Translations under genes and position numbers: made by a program
Notes under the pieces: model-generated
Told to the model about the DNA's origin: nothing
The model's database searches: none
The model's input: only the letters and a program-made list of their open reading frames with translations
Assembly (NCBI GenBank): GCA_038087875.1
Contig: CM075989.1
Coordinates: forward strand, 3,720,001 to 3,784,000
Length of the DNA stretch: 64,000 nucleotides
Direction of reading: 5' to 3'
From: Malacoraja senta
Taxonomy: Eukaryota
Part shown: piece by piece, positions 41,017-47,500 of the stretch
How the letters are laid out: every line of letters begins with the position of its first letter
Numbering within the stretch: the stretch's first letter is position 1

Positions 41017-43330
41017 CATCTCTTATCTCATGCTCTGTTAATTAAGTACCTCTTCGCCTGCACTTACTCGATATGCCAATGCCAGAATATACTGAATGCC
41101 TCCCAATATATTGCTGCTCTATACACTTACAATGTGGCCCAGTTCATGTCCTTGCCCTATTCTAAACCACTGGTTGCCATGGAGATAATCTTGGGGACTA
41201 CTACTGAAATGTGCTACTTGGCACATTATTCCTTTGATGTGTCTCTGTTGAGTGTGGTGTGACCATTCTACAGTGTGAGGTGATGAATATTAAAGGCTGC
41301 AATACAGTTGTACTACACTATGCTTGGGGGTAAAGATTAACACAGGATATCAGTATCTGCCGGTAACATTCATGGCTTCCTACACTCTATCCAAATAGGA
41401 CAAGAAGATCCATGTGAGCCAATGTCATTGTTATTTTCCCCATGGATGCTTTGACCTTTGGAGAGGCAACGCTTGAGTGACCTGCAGGCCACTCCCACTG
41501 TGTCTTCTTTCCCCTACTATTCATGATGTCACCCAAACCATTCCACATCTCCATCCACTGCGACCATATCACCACTTGGCACTGCACTGATATCTCCATT
41601 GATAACAATGCCTCTACCTTTGTGAGCACAAAAAGCTGGAGTAACTCAGCGGGTCATCTCCGGAGAAAAGGAACAGGTGACATTTTGGGTCGATACCCTT
41701 CTTGAGGTCTGTACAGAGATACTGCCTGACCCGCCGAGTTACTCCAGCATTTTGTGTCTATCTTCGGTTTGAACCAGCATCTAGTTCCTTCCTTTAGACA
41801 CCCTCTCCATTTTTATTTTGTTTAGAGATACAGCATGGAAACAGGCCCTTCAGCCCACCAAGTCCACGTTGACCATCGATCACCTGTTCACACAAGTTCT
41901 ATGTTCTATATTATCCCACTTTCTCATCCACTTCCTGCATACTCGGGGCAACCTTTTCTTTACAGAGGCCAATTAACCTGCAGAACCGCACGTCTTTGGG
42001 ATATGGGAGGAAACCGGAGCACCCAGAGGAAACCTTCACGGTCACAGGGAGAACATGCAAACTCCACACAGACAACACCTGAGGTGAGGATTGAACCCAG
42101 GTCTCTGGCGCCATGAGGCAGCAGCTGTCACCCTGCAAACACACCACTGTAATAGCTTTTAGATCAAACTTATTTGTTCCTGTATCTACCATCAACTCAC
42201 CTGTCTTGTTACTAAAAGTACGTGCATTTATCCTTAAGCTTTCCTAAGGGTGGCGTAGCGGTAGAGTTGCTGCCTTACAGCGCCAGAGACCAGGGTTGGA
42301 TCCTGACTGCAGGTGCTGTCTGTACAAAGTTTGTACATTCAGCCCGGGTGCTCTGGTTTCCTCCCACACTCCAGACAAGCAGGTCTGTAGGTTAATTGGC
42401 TTCGGTAAATATTGTAGATAGTCCCTAGTGTGTAGGATAGTGCTGGTGTACGGGGATCTTTGGTCAGCACGGGCTCGGTGGGCCGAAGGTCCTGTCTCCG
42501 TGCTGTATCTTCAAACTAAACTAAACTAAAGCTGGTGACATTTTATAATTTATATTCTTCCTTCCCTGATTCACTTAGTGCTTATACTTTCTGCACTTTC
42601 CTGTCATGCTTTGATCGTTGTACTGTTCCTCAGTATCCTGTGTCATGTTCACTTGTTTCTTTTGATTTATTAAACTTCCTGTTATTAGAACCCTTGGCCC
42701 AAATTAATTTGAAGTCTGGTCTATAATTAAGTGATTTAGCAAGACAACTCATCCCAGGAAGCCCTTCCCTGTGAATGAATGAATGAATATGTTTTTTGGC
42801 CAAGTATTCACATGCAAGGAATTTGCCTTGGTGCTCCGCCCGCAAGTGACAACATGACATGCAGTGACACTGTGGAACAGCTTCGCCACGACGAGTGCCA
42901 GTGCTTCTCCACTTTGCCCCAAGGTGCTCATAATACCAATGCAGAAACCTCTTCCTCATGCATTCTATACTTTTATTATCCATGTAGACCCTCACAAGGT
43001 GAACTTTCCTGACCTCCTGTCTCATATTGCTCTATCTCCTATGTCAACTGTGCTTGCCTTAAGTTGTGGCATTCACTATTAGAGTCAGGAAGTCATGATG
43101 CAGCTCTATAGAACTTTGGTTAGGTCGCATTGGAGTGTAGTGTGGAGTTCTGTTCATCCCATTGCAGGAAGGATTTGAGGCTTTGGTGAAGATGCAGAAG
43201 AGGTCTACCAAATGATGCCTGGTTTAGAGTGAATTAGTTATAAGGAGAGGTTGGTCAAACTTGGATTGGGTTTCTCTGACTGCAGGGAAACCTGAGTGCA
43301 TAGAAGTTTAAATAAGAAGTATATAGAATA

Positions 43331-44529
43331 AGGGAGTTCGGTATTCCGCAAAATGCAAGGAATCATGGGATTTGTTAAAGGTCGAAGCTATAAATAAAAA
43401 TTGAACGAAGTGAGTATCGTTTGGGTCCGATTTTTTTGGTCTTTTTTCAGTTGGCGCCCGGGGGGGGGGGGGAGACCAGGCGGGGGGTGGTGGGGGGAAG
43501 ACTGGACCGGCTCATCCGCAGTTAGGACTGTCCCCGGTTCCCCCCATTTGAGTGTCCCATCCCCGCACGGAGTGCGGCCGGAGACGTCCGGGCCGACGGG
43601 ACACTGGCCTCCCGGCCCATCACCAGCATGGAGAACCCACAGGCCCACGGGCCCACAGCCAGCATGGAGAAGCGGCAACTCCAGCCAAACCCCGCTCCAA
43701 CTGCAGAGGAACACGCTCCCCGGTTGGCTGCTACGTCGACAAGTGCCAGTTCGCCCACGGCCTGGCCGAGCAGCGCTCCCTCAGCAGCCAACTCAAGTAC
43801 AAGCCACTTGCATACCACCGGCCTCTGCCCCTACGGTACCCGCTGCCACTTCATCCACAACCCCGAGGAGGAGCAAGGACCCCGGCCTCGCCTGCGCCAG
43901 AGCGCCAGCCTGGGCTCAACCTCCTCCGGCCCGGCGCACGACTGTGCCTCGCCGCGGGCGGCCTTCAGCCCCGACCTGGAGTTGGAGCTGGCCCGGATTC
44001 CGGGCTTGGGGCTGGGCAAGGGAGGGGGAGGGGGACGAGGTTGCTGCTGCCGCCAGCACCACCAACAGCACCAGCAGCTCCAGCGGGCACCCGGCCTGCC
44101 CATGGCCGGCAGGAGCCCGTCCACAGACTCTCTCTCTCCGACCAGGACGACTCCAGCAGCAGCGGCTCCAAGTCGCCCTTCTTCGAGCAGGGCCGGCGGC
44201 TGCCCATCTTCAGCAAGATCTCGGTGTCGGACTGAGGGGAGGGGGGTGGAGGTGGAGGGCTGCCGGGACCAACCCAGCGGGACAGGCAGAGCTGAGCTGG
44301 AGCCAGCGGCTGCAAGTCCGGGGCCGCCCCGCCAGCCCAAGGCCACCCCGGACAGGGACGGGAAACCGGGGACGACCCACAGCAACTCAAGAGCATCCGC
44401 AGCGACGGAGAGCCAGGCCCGACCCCAGACGAAACGCAAGCCTGCACACAATGCAGCACCACTGTTGCCAAGACTTTATAGCTAGTGACCTATGACCTGG
44501 GCATGCGCAGTCGGAATACTGAACTCACT
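43331..44529. mobile_element. Non-autonomous TIR element carrying a captured host-gene fragment (Pack-TIR-like)
   Basis: Ends AGGGAGTTCGGTATTCCG / CGGAATACTGAACTCACT (16/18 inverted match), TA on both sides; interrupts a CR1 ORF2 remnant. Confidence 0.75.
43729..44235 (+). pseudogene. Degenerate ZFP36/TTP-family (tandem CCCH zinc finger) fragment
   Basis: Y(V)DKCQFAHGLAEQRSLSSQLKYK, then in another frame HTTGLCPYGTRCHFIHNPEE and RPRLRQSAS, then SLSDQD…RRLPIFSKISVSD* (CNOT1-binding terminus). First half of finger 1 and the TELC of finger 2 are missing; two frameshifts. Confidence 0.9.
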
Positions 44530-47500
44530 TATTGGGAGGCATAGATCGGGTAGACAGTCAGAACTTTTTTTCCCAGGGTGCAAATGTCAAAGAGTAGAGG
44601 GCATACCTTTAAGGTGAGAGGGGCAAGTTTAAAGATGTGTGGGGCAAGTTTTTACACAGACTGGTGGGTGCCTGGATGTAGCTCAGTCAATCACACACGC
44701 ACCAACTCAGGACCAGGAGGCAAGGATTCCCTTCGAATGATGAAAAGGGAGGGGAAGAGAAGATTTGTCTGGTGGTACCCATTTGAGCATGGTGGAAATT
44801 ATGAAAGGTGGTTTGTTACTGACCTATACAGCGTGGAAGCAGGCCCTTCGGCCCACCTTGTCTAGGCAACCAAGTTGGCTAGGTCCATTTGCCGGCATTT
44901 TTCCCGCAGCCCTAAACCCTTCCTATCCACATATCTGTCTAAATGTATTTTAAAAGATATAATTATATCTGCTTCGGGTGAGGCAGCATCTATGGAGCGA
45001 AAGAAATAGGCAACATTTCGGGTCGAAACCCTTCTTCAGACTCCAGCATTTTTGTCTACCTTCGATTTTCCAGCATCTGCAGTTCCTTCTTAAACATTAT
45101 ATCTGCTTCAATAGCTTTCTCTGGCAGCTCATTCCAGATATGGATTATCTCTGAGTGGAAAATGTTGCCCCTGAGGTCCCTCTTAAAACACTCCCTAGTC
45201 ACCTTCAGCCTGTGCCCTCTCATTTCAGACATTGATTTAGAATCTTCTACCCTGGGAAAGACTGTGGGTATTCACTTTATCCTTGAGCGTTATGAACTTG
45301 TGCATTTATATCAGGTTACCCCTCAGCCTCATACATTCCAAAGGAAAAAGAATCCCATCTTATCCATCCTCTCCCTGTGACTCAAGCTCACAAGCCCAGG
45401 TAGCACCCGGTGAATAAGTCTGATGAAGTCAGCCCATGCCCTCACAGATGCTGCCTGACCTGCTGAGTTCCTTCAGTACTTTGTTTTCTTGTCAACATCC
45501 TGATGAATCTACACTTTCCAACTTAATTGCGTCTGTTCTTCTTATCGAGTCCACACACAAGATTAGAAGTTGTTCAGCCAGAGCTGAACACACTTCTCGG
45601 CATCTGCACAATGGTGACTGTCTTGTCACTTCTTGAGCGCGGTTGTGGAAAGATTGATGGAAACAGGGCCATGACGTGAACGCTCTTTCCTTGACCCAGT
45701 CGCATCTAATGATTGAAGACATTTCGTTTCTCTTTAGTTTAGAGATACAGCGTGGAAACAGGCCCTTCGGCCCACCGAGTCCGCGCCGACCAGCGATCCC
45801 TCATACATTAGTTCTATCTGACACACTAGGGCCAATTCACAGAACCCATTTAACGTACAAACCTGTACGTCTTTGGAAAGTGGGAGGAAACCCACGCAAG
45901 TCACGGGTAGAACGTACAAACTCCACGCAGACAGCACCAGTAGTCAGGATCGAACCCGGGTCTCTGGTGCAGTATGGCACAAACCGCCACTGTGCCATCT
46001 CGAGCTGATGGAGTGGAAAGTAAAGACTAGACAACAGACTGGGAAGAGAACGCATGGGTGCAGATGTATGGAAACAAGATGAGAGGAAGTTAAGACTTGC
46101 TTCAATTATGCAAGAGGGGATGTCACGGTTAAGTAAGAAAGATGTAGTTAAGTAAGTAGGTTCATGTCATAGGAGCAGAATTTGTTCATTCCGCCATCCC
46201 ATGGGCCAAACTCAGCAAAACATCAGTGAAGGTAGGTGCCCACTTGATAACCCCAATGATATACTTTCATCTACATGATCAGTTTATTATGTGCTTGTTA
46301 ACAAGTAGGTAGCTGATGATCGCATATGGTTAGTTATTGTCCTTAGCATAAGTTTGTATAATCAGTTTAGATAGTGCTTTGGGCTTGGTTTTCTTGGTTG
46401 AGCGCTTATCCTGGCGTTATAACACGTACTTTGTTTTTTAATTGTAATCGTGGCTGATTGAAGGCACTTGCATCAAGACTCTTCATCATACCAGATGCGA
46501 TGAAGATGTAGCGAGTGGGGGGATGGCAAGGAGGCCTTTCAGGAAGCGGGCGTGGACAGTGTTGTGGTCTGGGGCTCAGTTGAACACAATACTGACGCGT
46601 GTGAGGCGGTTGTGGTTTAACAAACTCTATTTCCAGTTAGCCTTGCATCAGCTCTCTGAGGCCACCTGCCACCTCTCCCTGAACTATGGCCACACCATTG
46701 AGCAATGTTTCATCAGCTCATATCCTTGAGCCACCCCTCTCCGCCTCCAGTCTCTCAGACCCCCAATGCTACACTGCACCTTCTCTGAGATCTGTAAGCA
46801 GCGCTATCCTGGTGCACGCTATCAGGAGTCACCGAACCATTCCCTCCACAGACGCTGCCTGACCAACCGAGTTACTCCAGCACTTTGTGTTTTGCAAGTT
46901 CATTTGTGGAGGCCATAGTCAAAATAAGTTCCTGATAATGTAATCTTTAATTCCATCTATCCCTTTATCTTTCTGTTGGCCTGGCAACTGGAGTGTGGGT
47001 GGAGTCTTTCATCACAGATACCATTGCCTTTCAAATTGATTCAGTACTGCCAGTCACCTATGCCTCACTCAGATCTCCATCTCTGGCCGCCACCATTAGC
47101 GGACAATACAGCTCACCCCCTCTATGACACACTGGTCAACCTGAGGAGCACCTTCAGCAACAGACTGGTTCCACCAAGATGCAGCACGGAACGCCACAGG
47201 AGATCCTTCTTCCCTGTGGCTCTCAAACAGTACAACTCCTCCTTCTGTCGTGGGGTAGACTGTTTCCCCTTACCTTCCCCCACCCCCCCTCTCCGATCTT
47301 TGCAATTCCCCAATCCTGGACTTTCCACTCGTCACTTTCATGTTCCTTCTATCTTGTTGTGTGCTTATGACTGTTGGCAGACTAATTTCCCTCCTGGGAT
47401 AAATAAAGTTCTATCGTATCGTACTCCAGTGATGACAAGTGTAAACCCAAGGAACAGCACTGCATATTCTGTCTGGGAATGTTGCAAACTGTGGAACTTA

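What the first reader, a model, noticed from the sequence alone, without database searches (positions are those of the whole stretch)
43327..44533. DNA-transposon cassette that captured a ZFP36/TTP-family gene fragment (Pack-TIR-like)
Seen: a 1199-bp GC-rich block has inverted ends (aataagggagttcggtattccg at 43327-43348 vs the reverse complement of 44512-44533, 20/22) and TA on both sides. Removing 43331-44531 restores an in-frame CR1 ORF2 peptide EVYRILGGIDRVDSQN, so the block arrived as one insertion. It has no transposase; its cargo is about 500 bp of tandem CCCH zinc-finger gene including the C-terminal RRLPIFSKISVSD*. Known: gene capture by TIR elements is common in plants (Pack-MULEs) and rarer in vertebrates. 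Inference: a non-autonomous family may be spreading an mRNA-decay regulator fragment through this genome.
Basis: partly seen in the sequence, partly recalled or inferred. Interest (0 to 1): 0.82.

Follow-up and report, generated by a model that had tools for sequence, protein, structure and literature searches.

The report
Dead transposon carrying a ZFP36-like fragment
This 1.2-kb block is one decayed copy of a repeated, transposase-less DNA transposon of the ISL2EU type that carries a 531-bp piece of a ZFP36-like mRNA-decay gene of the same genome, a rare vertebrate example of gene capture by such an element, and it is likely inert today.

Summary
Window 43327-44533 is bounded by 22-nt inverted ends (20/22), splits a LINE ORF2 remnant and encodes no transposase.

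It is one copy of a family. The terminal 19-mer occurs 691 times in the genome (control 0). A cargo 16-mer occurs 185 times (control 0).

The cargo (window 43727-44257) matches part of exon 2 of a two-exon ZFP36-like gene on contig C3041, from the middle of zinc finger 1 to about 25 nt past the stop codon. In all 41 copies examined the match stays within the same two end points. The family's cargo consensus is 97.4% identical to that gene, which points to a single capture.

Five paralogous empty sites show a 4-nt target, AATT or a near variant, with AT duplicated. That is the published signature of the ISL2EU group.

Three decayed larger elements encode THAP, HTH_Tnp_4, DDE_Tnp_4 and YqaJ remnants. 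Two of them keep both of the family's termini; the third keeps only a degenerate left end. Cargo-free relatives with the same ends also exist.

The family looks extinct: copies are 74-90% identical to this one. The cargo is broken in this copy, and I found no evidence of function.

It is a new member of a known kind, of moderate interest.

The parts
43059..43326 (+). Left half of the interrupted LINE ORF2 remnant (host of the insertion)
   Evidence: tblastn of an RVT_1-bearing LINE ORF (L032:3399-4607) aligns residues 225-295 to window 43059-43268. Paralogous LINE copies run through the insertion point.
43327..43329 (.). Left target remnant: host A (43327) plus the AT target-site duplication (43328-43329), under the ISL2EU A|AT|T model
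   Evidence: Five paralogous empty sites of other copies have 4 nt (AATT, TATT, AATT, AGTC, AATC) where the copies have xAT...ATx. The ISL2EU target A|AT|T is described in PMC4482050 (passages).
43330..43349 (+). Left terminal inverted repeat proper (aagggagttcggtattccgc; family consensus AAGCGAGTTCGGTATTCCGA)
43330..43454 (+). Left terminal region, shared with the decayed autonomous-type elements. In those elements it runs up to the start codon of the YqaJ-type ORF.
   Evidence: Family consensus 1-152 aligns to relics L079 and L082 and then diverges at gtcATGGCTGA. The window maps to consensus 1-229 at 43327-43521. The end coordinate is approximate.
43455..43726 (+). GC-rich backbone filler (G run, C run, short direct repeats). 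It comes neither from the donor gene nor from the autonomous-type relics. The window copy lacks about 230 bp of the family consensus here.
   Evidence: direct repeat D1.
43727..44257 (+). Captured fragment of exon 2 of a ZFP36-like gene: C-terminal half of finger 1, linker, finger 2 (broken here), C-terminal region with RRLPIFSKISVSD, stop TGA at 44233-44235, and about 22-25 nt of 3' UTR
   Evidence: blastn of donor-type locus L105:2601-3262 hits window 43727-44257 at 82.7% over 596 columns. Translation. Better-kept copy L096 scores zf-CCCH E 1e-13.
43797..43823 (+). Site of the subfamily's 11-nt deletion between KYK and the second finger. It shifts the frame, so finger 2 loses its first Cys.
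   Evidence: Cargo alignment against the donor. The window reads aagtacaagccacttgcataccaccgg. Copies L095-L104 lack the deletion.
44258..44416 (+). GC-rich backbone on the 3' side of the cargo, shared with cargo-free relatives
   Evidence: Consensus 1136-1438 is shared with cargo-free element L036. The end coordinate is approximate.
44417..44530 (+). Right terminal region shared with the autonomous-type relics, ending in the right TIR (44511-44530)
   Evidence: Consensus from about 1322 to 1438 aligns to L079 and L082. TIR.
44531..44533 (.). Right target remnant: AT duplication (44531-44532) plus host T (44533)
   Evidence: As for the left remnant.
44534..44751 (+). Right half of the interrupted LINE ORF2 remnant
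   Evidence: LINE ORF residues 325-382 align to window 44566-44751. Paralogs.

Best explanation
Window 43330-44530 is one old copy of a multi-copy, transposase-less DNA transposon that carries a 531-bp fragment of a ZFP36-like gene of the same genome, and it was likely moved in trans by an ISL2EU-type transposase.

Shown directly:
- The element sits inside a LINE ORF2 remnant.
- Its 20-nt terminal inverted repeats, and about 150 bp (left) and 115 bp (right) of terminal sequence, are shared with larger decayed elements. Those elements encode THAP, HTH_Tnp_4, DDE_Tnp_4 and YqaJ remnants.
- Other copies lie at 4-nt AATT-like sites with AT duplicated.
- The cargo matches exon 2 of a two-exon ZFP36-like gene on contig C3041, from the middle of zinc finger 1 to about 25 nt past the stop codon. 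The match stays within the same two end points in every copy examined.
- Cargo-free relatives share the same backbone.

Inferred:
- An older non-autonomous ISL2EU element picked up the gene piece once, at the DNA level. Template switching during repair is the usual model for this.
- That lineage then amplified to at least a few hundred copies, using the transposase of its autonomous relatives.
- Both the lineage and its relatives then died.

The window copy is an inert relic. It has mutated TIRs (20/22), about 230 bp of internal deletions, a frameshifting 11-nt deletion in the finger region, and it has lost the junction ATG.
For: 1. Family and boundaries. A search of the own genome with window 43250-44620 gave 86 matches from 40 scored candidates. 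The long matches all ended at query positions 74-80 and 1283-1289, which correspond to window 43327 and 44533. Identity to this copy was 74-90%. The TIR 19-mer occurs 341+350 times, control 0. The cargo 16-mer CTGCCCATCTTCAGCA occurs 116+69 times, control 0.

2. Target site. In 78 ends, position 1 is A in 63 and T in 13. Positions 2-3 are A in 73 and T in 73. Paralogous empty sites have 4 nt where the copies have xAT[element]ATx:
- L004: AATT in 9 of 12 listed paralogs that project 4 or 5 nt between the flanks, plus AATC, ACTT and AATTT.
- L019: TATT, matching that copy's own T at position 1.
- L023: AATT.
- L029: AGTC.
- L097: AATC.
PMC4482050 (passages read) describes ISL2EU as having an AT duplication, an A|AT|T target, and two ORFs: a THAP+HTH+DDE transposase and a YqaJ protein.

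3. Partners. L079 (4.7 kb) and L082 (5.4 kb) carry both TIRs and consensus 1-152 and about 1322-1438. Pfam hits are as follows:
- L082: THAP E 3.1e-6, HTH_Tnp_4 E 6.8e-8, YqaJ E 2.3e-9.
- L079: Viral_alk_exo E 2.2e-5.
- L076: DDE_Tnp_4 E 1.3e-25. L076 shares segments 78-90% identical with L082 and 73-87% identical with L079.

4. Donor.
- L105 (C3041) has exon 1 (MSDFRELCELVSE), an intron of about 1.2 kb, and exon 2 with a full tandem finger.
- The match to the cargo covers only L105:2659-3251.
- Of 41 loci with a match of at least 400 nt, 35 start at donor position 58-65 and none starts earlier. None extends past position 661.
- The cargo consensus matches L105 at 516 of 530 aligned bases (97.4%). 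Copies match their consensus at a mean of 93.8%.
- Intact orthologues of 289-299 aa exist in skates and rays, named ZFP36-like or ZFP36L2-A-like.

5. Cargo-free relatives. L035-L041 and L031 have the same TIRs. L036 shares backbone consensus 166-529 and 1136-1438 on both sides of the cargo position.
Against: 1. The window copy's own site is ambiguous. Paralogous LINE copies and the LINE consensus have 6 nt here (AATTAT or AAATAT). The ISL2EU model needs an extra 2-nt deletion at this site.

2. The autonomous-type relics are heavily decayed. THAP, HTH and YqaJ are seen in L082, but the DDE part is seen only in L076, whose terminal match is weak (one degenerate TIR and a 43-nt match). No transposase phylogeny was done.

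3. L105 carries two compensating 1-nt indels in C runs relative to the cargo consensus and to its orthologues. It may be mis-assembled, or it may be a damaged copy of the true donor.

4. The capture mechanism is not shown. The fragment lies inside one exon, so DNA origin and RNA origin cannot be told apart by introns.

5. Only about 45 TIR pairs and 41 cargo copies were inspected, out of several hundred.
Confidence: 0.87

Rival explanations
1. A Tc1/mariner-type (TA-duplicating) non-autonomous element with captured cargo.
For: TA is present at both junctions of the window copy. Removing 1201 bp leaves a 6-nt AATATT site that matches the length of paralogous LINE copies and keeps the ORF2 frame. 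The LINE consensus seen as loose ends agrees.
Against: Five other insertion sites have 4-nt empty sites without TA. Positions flanking the supposed TA are conserved at 94%, too high for a target preference. The partners encode THAP, HTH_Tnp_4, DDE_Tnp_4 and YqaJ, not a Tc1/mariner transposase.
Confidence: 0.04
2. A processed retrocopy of a ZFP36-like mRNA landed in a pre-existing MITE, which then amplified. On this view the capture was mediated by LINE machinery, not by DNA-level capture.
For: The fragment lies within a single exon, so the absence of an intron says nothing. 5' truncation is typical of retrocopies. The element sits in a LINE-rich genome.
Against: The 3' breakpoint lies only about 25 nt past the stop codon. 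There is no 3' UTR remainder, no poly(A) tract, and no duplication flanking the cargo within the backbone (family consensus; junction sequences).
Confidence: 0.05
3. The cargo-bearing element is, or was, functional. The transposon's left-end promoter and a new ATG at the capture junction would drive a truncated ZFP36-like protein (half of finger 1, finger 2, and the C-terminal RRLPIFSRISVSD motif) or antisense and small RNAs that act on the donor gene.
For: The cargo lies in sense orientation directly downstream of the left terminal region, which in the autonomous-type relics precedes the YqaJ ORF start. An in-frame ATG (GATGGGCCGCTACGGC) sits at the junction in 31 of 40 copies. Better-kept copies retain a scoring CCCH finger. 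Differences from the consensus are somewhat higher at third codon positions: 0.064, 0.050 and 0.072-0.079 per site at positions 1, 2 and 3. Reads from RNA libraries that resemble the family exist in one organism label.
Against: The third-position excess is only 1.4-1.6-fold and can come from base composition. No copy examined keeps the first two cysteines of finger 1. No database protein covers the backbone plus cargo; coverage is at most 42% in the 120 rows listed of 400 hits. RNA reads are mostly 90-95% alike, partial, and on both strands. The window copy lacks the ATG and is frameshifted.
Confidence: 0.06

Closest known systems
ISL2EU group of the PHIS (PIF/Harbinger-ISL2EU-Spy) superfamily of DNA transposons (Han et al. 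2015, PMC4482050; passages read)
   Same: AT duplication inside an A|AT|T target. Short TIRs. Autonomous-type relatives with a THAP+HTH+DDE transposase ORF and a second ORF with a YqaJ exonuclease domain.
   Different: This family member is non-autonomous and carries a host gene fragment. Neither of my two searches listed a paper on ISL2EU gene capture. The transposase relics are decayed and were not placed in a tree.
Pack-TYPE transposons of plants, such as Pack-MULE and Pack-CACTA (abstract of PMC8903248 seen in a search listing)
   Same: A non-autonomous TIR element whose interior holds a fragment of a host gene, amplified after capture, with an identifiable parent gene elsewhere in the genome.
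   Different: The host is a vertebrate and the superfamily is ISL2EU. There is a single fragment from a single capture event, embedded in an older backbone rather than filling the whole interior.
Gene-fragment capture by Helitrons in vertebrates, in bats (PMC4224331) and Xenopus (PMC12001565); search listing only
   Same: Spread of host exon fragments through a vertebrate genome by a non-autonomous DNA transposon.
   Different: Helitrons use a rolling-circle mechanism and have no TIRs and no duplication. Here the element is of the cut-and-paste TIR type with an AT duplication.
Batoid ZFP36-like gene (P0002 'mRNA decay activator protein ZFP36L2-A-like', P0003 'ZFP36-like'; names as given by the source databases)
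   Same: The cargo consensus is 97.4% identical in DNA to exon 2 of the genome's own copy (L105). It shares the batoid-specific KYKTEPC lead-in of finger 2 and the C-terminal SPVFEQGRRLPIFSRISVSD.
   Different: The cargo lacks exon 1, the N-terminal region and the first half of finger 1. It is frameshifted in the window copy, so it is not a member of the functional gene family.

Membership tests
ISL2EU group (PHIS superfamily) | 2-bp AT target-site duplication within the target A|AT|T | tested here: met
   Five independent insertion sites have 4-nt paralogous empty sites: AATT, TATT, AATT, AGTC, AATC. In 78 ends, A or T is at position 1 and AT is at positions 2-3 in 73. The window copy's own site is ambiguous.
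ISL2EU group (PHIS superfamily) | Autonomous element encodes a transposase with THAP, HTH and DDE domains | tested here: met
   The evidence comes from decayed relics with the family's termini. L082: THAP E 3.1e-6 and HTH_Tnp_4 E 6.8e-8. L076: DDE_Tnp_4 E 1.3e-25; it shares DNA segments with L079 and L082. No single relic holds all three domains intact.
ISL2EU group (PHIS superfamily) | Second ORF with a YqaJ exonuclease domain | tested here: met
   PF09588 hits lie inside the TIR-bounded relics L079 and L082. L082 ORF: YqaJ E 2.3e-9. L079 ORF: Viral_alk_exo E 2.2e-5.
ISL2EU group (PHIS superfamily) | Transposase clusters with ISL2EU transposases in a phylogeny of PHIS DDE domains | not tested
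   No reference ISL2EU transposases were on hand. The only comparison is 38% identity of the L076 DDE remnant to the transposase of a young YqaJ+DDE_Tnp_4 element in the same genome.
Pack-TYPE (gene-fragment-carrying non-autonomous TIR transposon) | TIRs and a duplication are present, and there is no transposase inside | tested here: met
   for the window copy; for the family.
Pack-TYPE (gene-fragment-carrying non-autonomous TIR transposon) | The interior contains a fragment of a host gene whose parent locus lies elsewhere and lacks the element's ends | tested here: met
   L105 (C3041) matches only consensus 603-1134. It has exon 1, an intron and a full exon 2, and no TIRs. The consensus matches the parent at 516 of 530 bases.
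Pack-TYPE (gene-fragment-carrying non-autonomous TIR transposon) | The element was mobilised after capture, giving several copies with identical cargo breakpoints at different sites | tested here: met
   In 41 of 41 loci the match lies within donor positions 58-661, and 35 start at 58-65. Flanks differ between copies. The cargo 16-mer occurs 185 times.
Tc1/mariner-type MITE | TA target-site duplication | tested here: not met
   The empty sites are 4 nt and lack TA.
Processed retrocopy | 3' poly(A) tract and a flanking duplication around the gene-derived segment | tested here: not met
   The cargo ends about 25 nt after the stop codon and runs straight into GC-rich backbone. There is no A tract.
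ZFP36/TIS11 tandem zinc-finger proteins (as a functional gene) | Two C-x8-C-x5-C-x3-H fingers, each with a (R/K)YKTEL lead-in, in one open frame | tested here: not met
   Pfam finds nothing in the window's cargo frame. All TE copies match the host tandem-finger query only from residue 11 or later, most from residue 18. Finger 2 alone scores in better-kept copies.

The most novel reading that the evidence does not exclude
A vertebrate 'Pack-ISL2EU' placed a truncated ZFP36-like ORF, with one CCCH finger and the C-terminal RRLPIFSRISVSD motif, directly behind the transposon's own YqaJ-gene leader with a new in-frame ATG, and copied it hundreds of times. While active, this created a dispersed source of a dominant-negative mRNA-decay factor, or of small RNAs aimed at the donor gene.
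Probability: 0.06. Interest if true: 0.75.

Novelty: new member of a known kind. Interest (0 to 1): 0.45.

Why it matters
Capture and amplification of host gene fragments by cut-and-paste TIR transposons is well documented in plants (Pack-TYPE elements). In my searches the vertebrate cases listed involved Helitrons.

Here all the pieces of such an event can be read in one vertebrate genome:
- the donor gene;
- the exact breakpoints;
- a cargo-free backbone;
- the decayed autonomous partners;
- at least 185 dispersed cargo copies.

This gives a clean case for studying how ISL2EU elements acquire foreign DNA. It is also a practical warning for annotation: hundreds of ZFP36-like pseudo-exons could be mistaken for gene-family expansion. 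For the window itself the element is an ordinary dead repeat.

Tried and rejected
1. TA-duplication (Tc1/mariner) model. Rejected on five empty sites.

2. Looking for an autonomous partner among long TIR pairs. The 5-kb pair (L032) is a standard copy with a nested LINE (RVT_1). The 6.4-kb pair (L031) is two or more cargo-free elements.

3. A young element with YqaJ and DDE_Tnp_4 on C341 and C61 (98% identical copies). It has different termini (TATAGGGAGGTTTCACGAAGCCG) and no similarity to this family. It is not the partner.

4. Host ZFP36L1- and ZFP36L2-like genes on C2 (L092, L091) as donors. Rejected: only 80-81% identity over the finger region and 73-77% at the C-terminus.

5. A 'promoter, mini-exon and intron' reading of the left end. 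I dropped the intron idea. In the relics the shared region simply ends at an ATG, and the TATA-like motif reads GATAAAGAAAAA there.

6. A tRNA- or SINE-like piece at consensus 226-316. Rfam at E up to 0.1 found nothing there.

7. A junction-spanning BLAST with joined flanks gave nothing. I replaced it with a two-flank projection.

8. The search of earlier findings by sequence returned nothing.

9. Sequencing runs.
- No RNA holder was listed.
- DNA contigs of four runs under four coded organism labels lay on the ends and cargo. Only 3-4% of the laid contigs were 99% or more alike and most were 90-95% alike. They are relatives of the family, not this locus. No orthologous empty site could be read.
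- Raw RNA reads of one organism label lay mostly at 90-95% likeness. Only 4 of 672, 5 of 1050 and 2 of 1046 were 99% or more alike. Most lay only partly on the stretch, and they lay on both strands. This gives no verdict on expression of this copy.

10. A protein search with a 314-aa backbone-plus-cargo ORF found only true ZFP36-family genes, covering at most 42% of the query in the 120 rows listed of 400 hits.

11. Literature. Two searches listed no paper on ISL2EU gene capture or on a ZFP36 fragment in a cartilaginous-fish transposon. The library is incomplete, Repbase could not be consulted, and I did not open the supplements of PMC4482050.

Full report
**1. The observation**

The block is as described. 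Window 43327-43348 and 44512-44533 form a 22-nt inverted repeat with 20 of 22 bases paired. It is the strongest inverted pair in the region (sequence). GC content rises from about 0.38-0.50 in the flanks to 0.64-0.74 inside the block.

The block encodes no transposase. One frame ends in ...FFEQGRRLPIFSKISVSD followed by a stop codon.

The two flanks are halves of one LINE ORF2 remnant. An RVT_1-bearing LINE ORF taken from locus L032 aligns to both sides of the block: residues 225-295 upstream and residues 325-382 downstream. Paralogous LINE copies run straight through the insertion point. The block therefore arrived as one insertion.

**2. It is a family with exact ends**

I searched the window's own genome (G000, 1.94 Gb) with window 43250-44620. 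The search returned 86 matches from 40 scored candidates. Every long match stopped at query positions 74-80 and 1283-1289, which are window 43327 and 44533. Identity to this copy was 74-90%.

The first-look count of 4257 candidates includes the LINE flanks of my query, so it is not a copy number.

Two exact-word counts give lower bounds:
- The terminal 19-mer AAGCGAGTTCGGTATTCCG occurs 341 times forward and 350 times reverse. The reversed control occurs 0 times.
- The cargo 16-mer that encodes LPIFS occurs 116+69 times, control 0.

A consensus of 26 full copies is about 1438 bp, with a perfect 23-nt terminal palindrome AATAAGCGAGTTCGGTATTCCGA. The window copy lacks about 230 bp of consensus positions 230-500. 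The window holds no second copy.

**3. Target site and superfamily**

Across 78 ends, the outermost base is A in 63 and T in 13. The next two bases are A in 73 and T in 73, as conserved as the TIR itself. The base outside the palindrome is C or G in 56 of 78 ends.

I reconstructed empty sites from paralogous repeats for copies that had landed in other repeats. Where the copies have xAT[element]ATx, the paralogs have 4 nt:

| Copy | Paralogous empty site |
|---|---|
| L004 | AATT in 9 of the 12 listed paralogs that project 4 or 5 nt between the flanks; AATC, ACTT and AATTT in the other three |
| L019 | TATT, which matches that copy's own unusual T at position 1 |
| L023 | AATT |
| L029 | AGTC |
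| L097 | AATC |

A sixth site (L035) was unclear.

So the target is AATT or a near variant, AT is duplicated, and the element proper is 5'-AAGCGAG...CTCGCTT-3'. Han et al. 2015 (PMC4482050; passages read) describe exactly this for the ISL2EU group: AT duplications, a conserved A before and T after, the target A|AT|T confirmed by paralogous empty sites, and autonomous elements with a THAP+HTH+DDE transposase ORF plus a YqaJ ORF.

For the window copy the element proper is therefore 43330-44530. AT lies at 43328-29 and 44531-32, with host A at 43327 and host T at 44533.

One result goes against this at this particular site. The paralogous LINE copies, and the LINE consensus seen as loose ends in reads, have 6 nt here (AAATTATGA). 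The ISL2EU model needs an additional 2-nt loss. I weigh five clean sites and the partner's gene content above one ambiguous site in a LINE copy about 20% diverged from its paralogs.

**4. Autonomous-type partners**

A Pfam YqaJ search of the genome gave 32 matches. I fetched 10 kb around 15 of them. Two hold the family's TIRs on both sides of the YqaJ hit: L079 (4.7 kb between TIRs) and L082 (5.4 kb).

They share only the left 152 bp and the right 115 bp or so with the non-autonomous consensus. Both are riddled with stops, but their remnants still score:
- L082: THAP E 3.1e-6, HTH_Tnp_4 E 6.8e-8, YqaJ E 2.3e-9.
- L079: Viral_alk_exo E 2.2e-5.
- L076, a third relic: DDE_Tnp_4 E 1.3e-25. It shares segments 78-90% identical with L082 and 73-87% identical with L079. 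It carries the DDE stretch at the point where L082 has a deletion. Its own terminal match is weak: one degenerate TIR.

In the orientation of the family consensus, the YqaJ gene reads forward from the left end. The shared left region stops at gtcATGGCTGA, which looks like its start codon. The transposase gene reads inward from the right end.

A separate, young element with YqaJ and DDE_Tnp_4 on C341 and C61 has 98% identical copies and open frames of 551 and 413 aa. Its termini are different, so it is not the partner.

**5. The cargo and its donor**

The genome's ZFP36L1- and ZFP36L2-like genes (L092, L091) match the cargo only at 80-81% over the fingers.

I then searched with the host tandem-finger peptide (72 aa). 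It found those two genes, about 148 transposon copies that match only from residue 11 or later (most from residue 18), and one locus on C3041 that also covers residues 1-40.

That locus (L105) has:
- exon 1, MSDFRELCELVSE;
- an intron of about 1.2 kb ending in ...ccgcag;
- an exon 2 with both fingers ([26 protein letters not shown] / [40 protein letters not shown]) and the C-terminus SPVFEQGRRLPIFSRISVSD.

It has no transposon ends.

The family matches it only over L105:2659-3251. This runs from the codons for C-R-Y-G-D in finger 1 to about 25 nt after the stop codon. Of 41 loci with a match of at least 400 nt, 35 start at donor position 58-65. None starts earlier and none runs past position 661. 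For this count I excluded the host genes and L105 itself. Three duplicate loci (L025, L027, L107) were dropped before the alignment.

The cargo consensus of 38 copies matches L105 at 516 of 530 aligned bases (97.4%), with 64 gap columns, mostly in simple repeats. The copies match their own consensus at a mean of 93.8%, range 90.9-95.8%. This pattern is what one capture event followed by amplification and decay would leave.

Intact orthologues of the donor, 289-299 aa, exist in skates and rays. Source names are ZFP36L2-A-like and ZFP36-like. All have the KYKTEPC lead-in.

L105 differs from them, and from the cargo consensus, by two compensating 1-nt indels in C runs. These may be assembly errors or real damage.

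The window's subfamily has an extra 11-nt deletion between KYK and finger 2. Copies L095-L104 lack it and keep finger 2 in frame. L096 scores zf-CCCH at E 1e-13. No copy examined has the first half of finger 1.

There is no poly(A) tract and no duplication around the cargo. A retrocopy origin is therefore unlikely, although the fragment lies within a single exon and so introns cannot decide.

**6. Backbone and cargo-free relatives**

Among the first 100 listed TIR matches (all on contig C1), 13 plus/minus pairs lie within 6.5 kb of each other. I examined 12 of them:
- L004, L032 and L034 carry the cargo.
- L033 keeps an 84-nt cargo remnant.
- L031 and L035-L041 have the same TIRs but no ZFP36 segment.

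L036 (942 bp) shares consensus 166-529 and 1136-1438, which is the backbone on both sides of the cargo. It has about 100 nt of its own in between. The backbone also holds partly inverted internal arms.

I infer that the gene piece entered a pre-existing non-autonomous element. The mechanism is not shown. Template switching during double-strand-break repair is the standard model for such captures.

**7. Function**

The cargo lies in sense orientation just downstream of the left terminal region. An in-frame ATG sits at the junction in 31 of 40 copies, though not in the window copy.

Differences from the consensus per site at codon positions 1, 2 and 3 are 0.064, 0.050 and 0.072-0.079. That excess at third positions is weak and I do not take it as evidence of constraint.

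No database protein covers both backbone and cargo.

Reads gave no verdict on expression:
- DNA contigs under four coded organism labels resemble the family. Most are 90-95% alike.
- RNA reads of one label are mostly partial, 90-95% alike, and on both strands.

I conclude that the window copy is inert. A past regulatory role for the family is possible but unsupported.

**8. Comparison and verdict**

The element works like a Pack-TYPE element and meets that kind's features. By target site and partner gene content it belongs with ISL2EU. A transposase phylogeny was not done.

Two literature searches listed nothing on ISL2EU gene capture or on a ZFP36 fragment in a cartilaginous-fish transposon. 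Repbase could not be checked.

It is a new member of a known kind.

Noticed in passing
G000:C341:14231-19323 and C61 (loci L072-L075): A young element of about 5 kb, in two copies 96-98% identical. It has open frames for a 551-aa YqaJ+PHD protein and a 413-aa HTH_Tnp_4+DDE_Tnp_4 transposase, and termini TATAGGGAGGTTTCACGAAGCCG flanked by AT. It may be a recently active ISL2EU-like transposon in this genome. It is unrelated in sequence to the finding's family.
   Followed up: partly
G000:C13:44199-200678 (loci L106, L107): At least seven copies of the cargo-bearing element lie on one strand, spaced about 15-55 kb apart on the window's own contig. The two I fetched (L106, L107) carry a 1.1-kb insertion at the same internal position. 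This looks like a tandem segmental duplication that contains one element. It probably contributes to the 116 against 69 strand imbalance of the cargo 16-mer.
   Followed up: partly
G000:C3041:94500-97855 (L105:2680-2690 and 2845-2855): The donor-type ZFP36-like gene sits at the very end of a 97.9-kb contig. It has two compensating 1-nt indels in C runs that would scramble finger 2 if real. This may be an assembly error or a damaged gene copy.
   Followed up: partly
window 43857-44192: DNA contigs of all four laid runs (coded organisms A-D) include a variant of the family that skips 334-337 bp of the cargo between these positions. This is a deletion subfamily (table 5).
   Followed up: no
family consensus 47-61 and 1389-1405 (window about 43373-43385 and 44486-44500): The hexamer AGGTCA/TGACCT recurs in the subterminal regions of both ends, once at the left and twice at the right. 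It is also kept in the autonomous-type relics. It could be a transposase-binding motif. This is untested.
   Followed up: no
G000:C8:25292821-25356420 (loci L042-L044, L070): Four YqaJ-domain open frames of 420-588 aa lie about 20 kb apart on one strand. This is a tandem array that may be a host gene cluster or repeated elements.
   Followed up: no
window 44826-44900: Very high summed contig depth (millions) in all four DNA runs. An extremely abundant short repeat lies just downstream of the LINE remnant (table 2).
   Followed up: no
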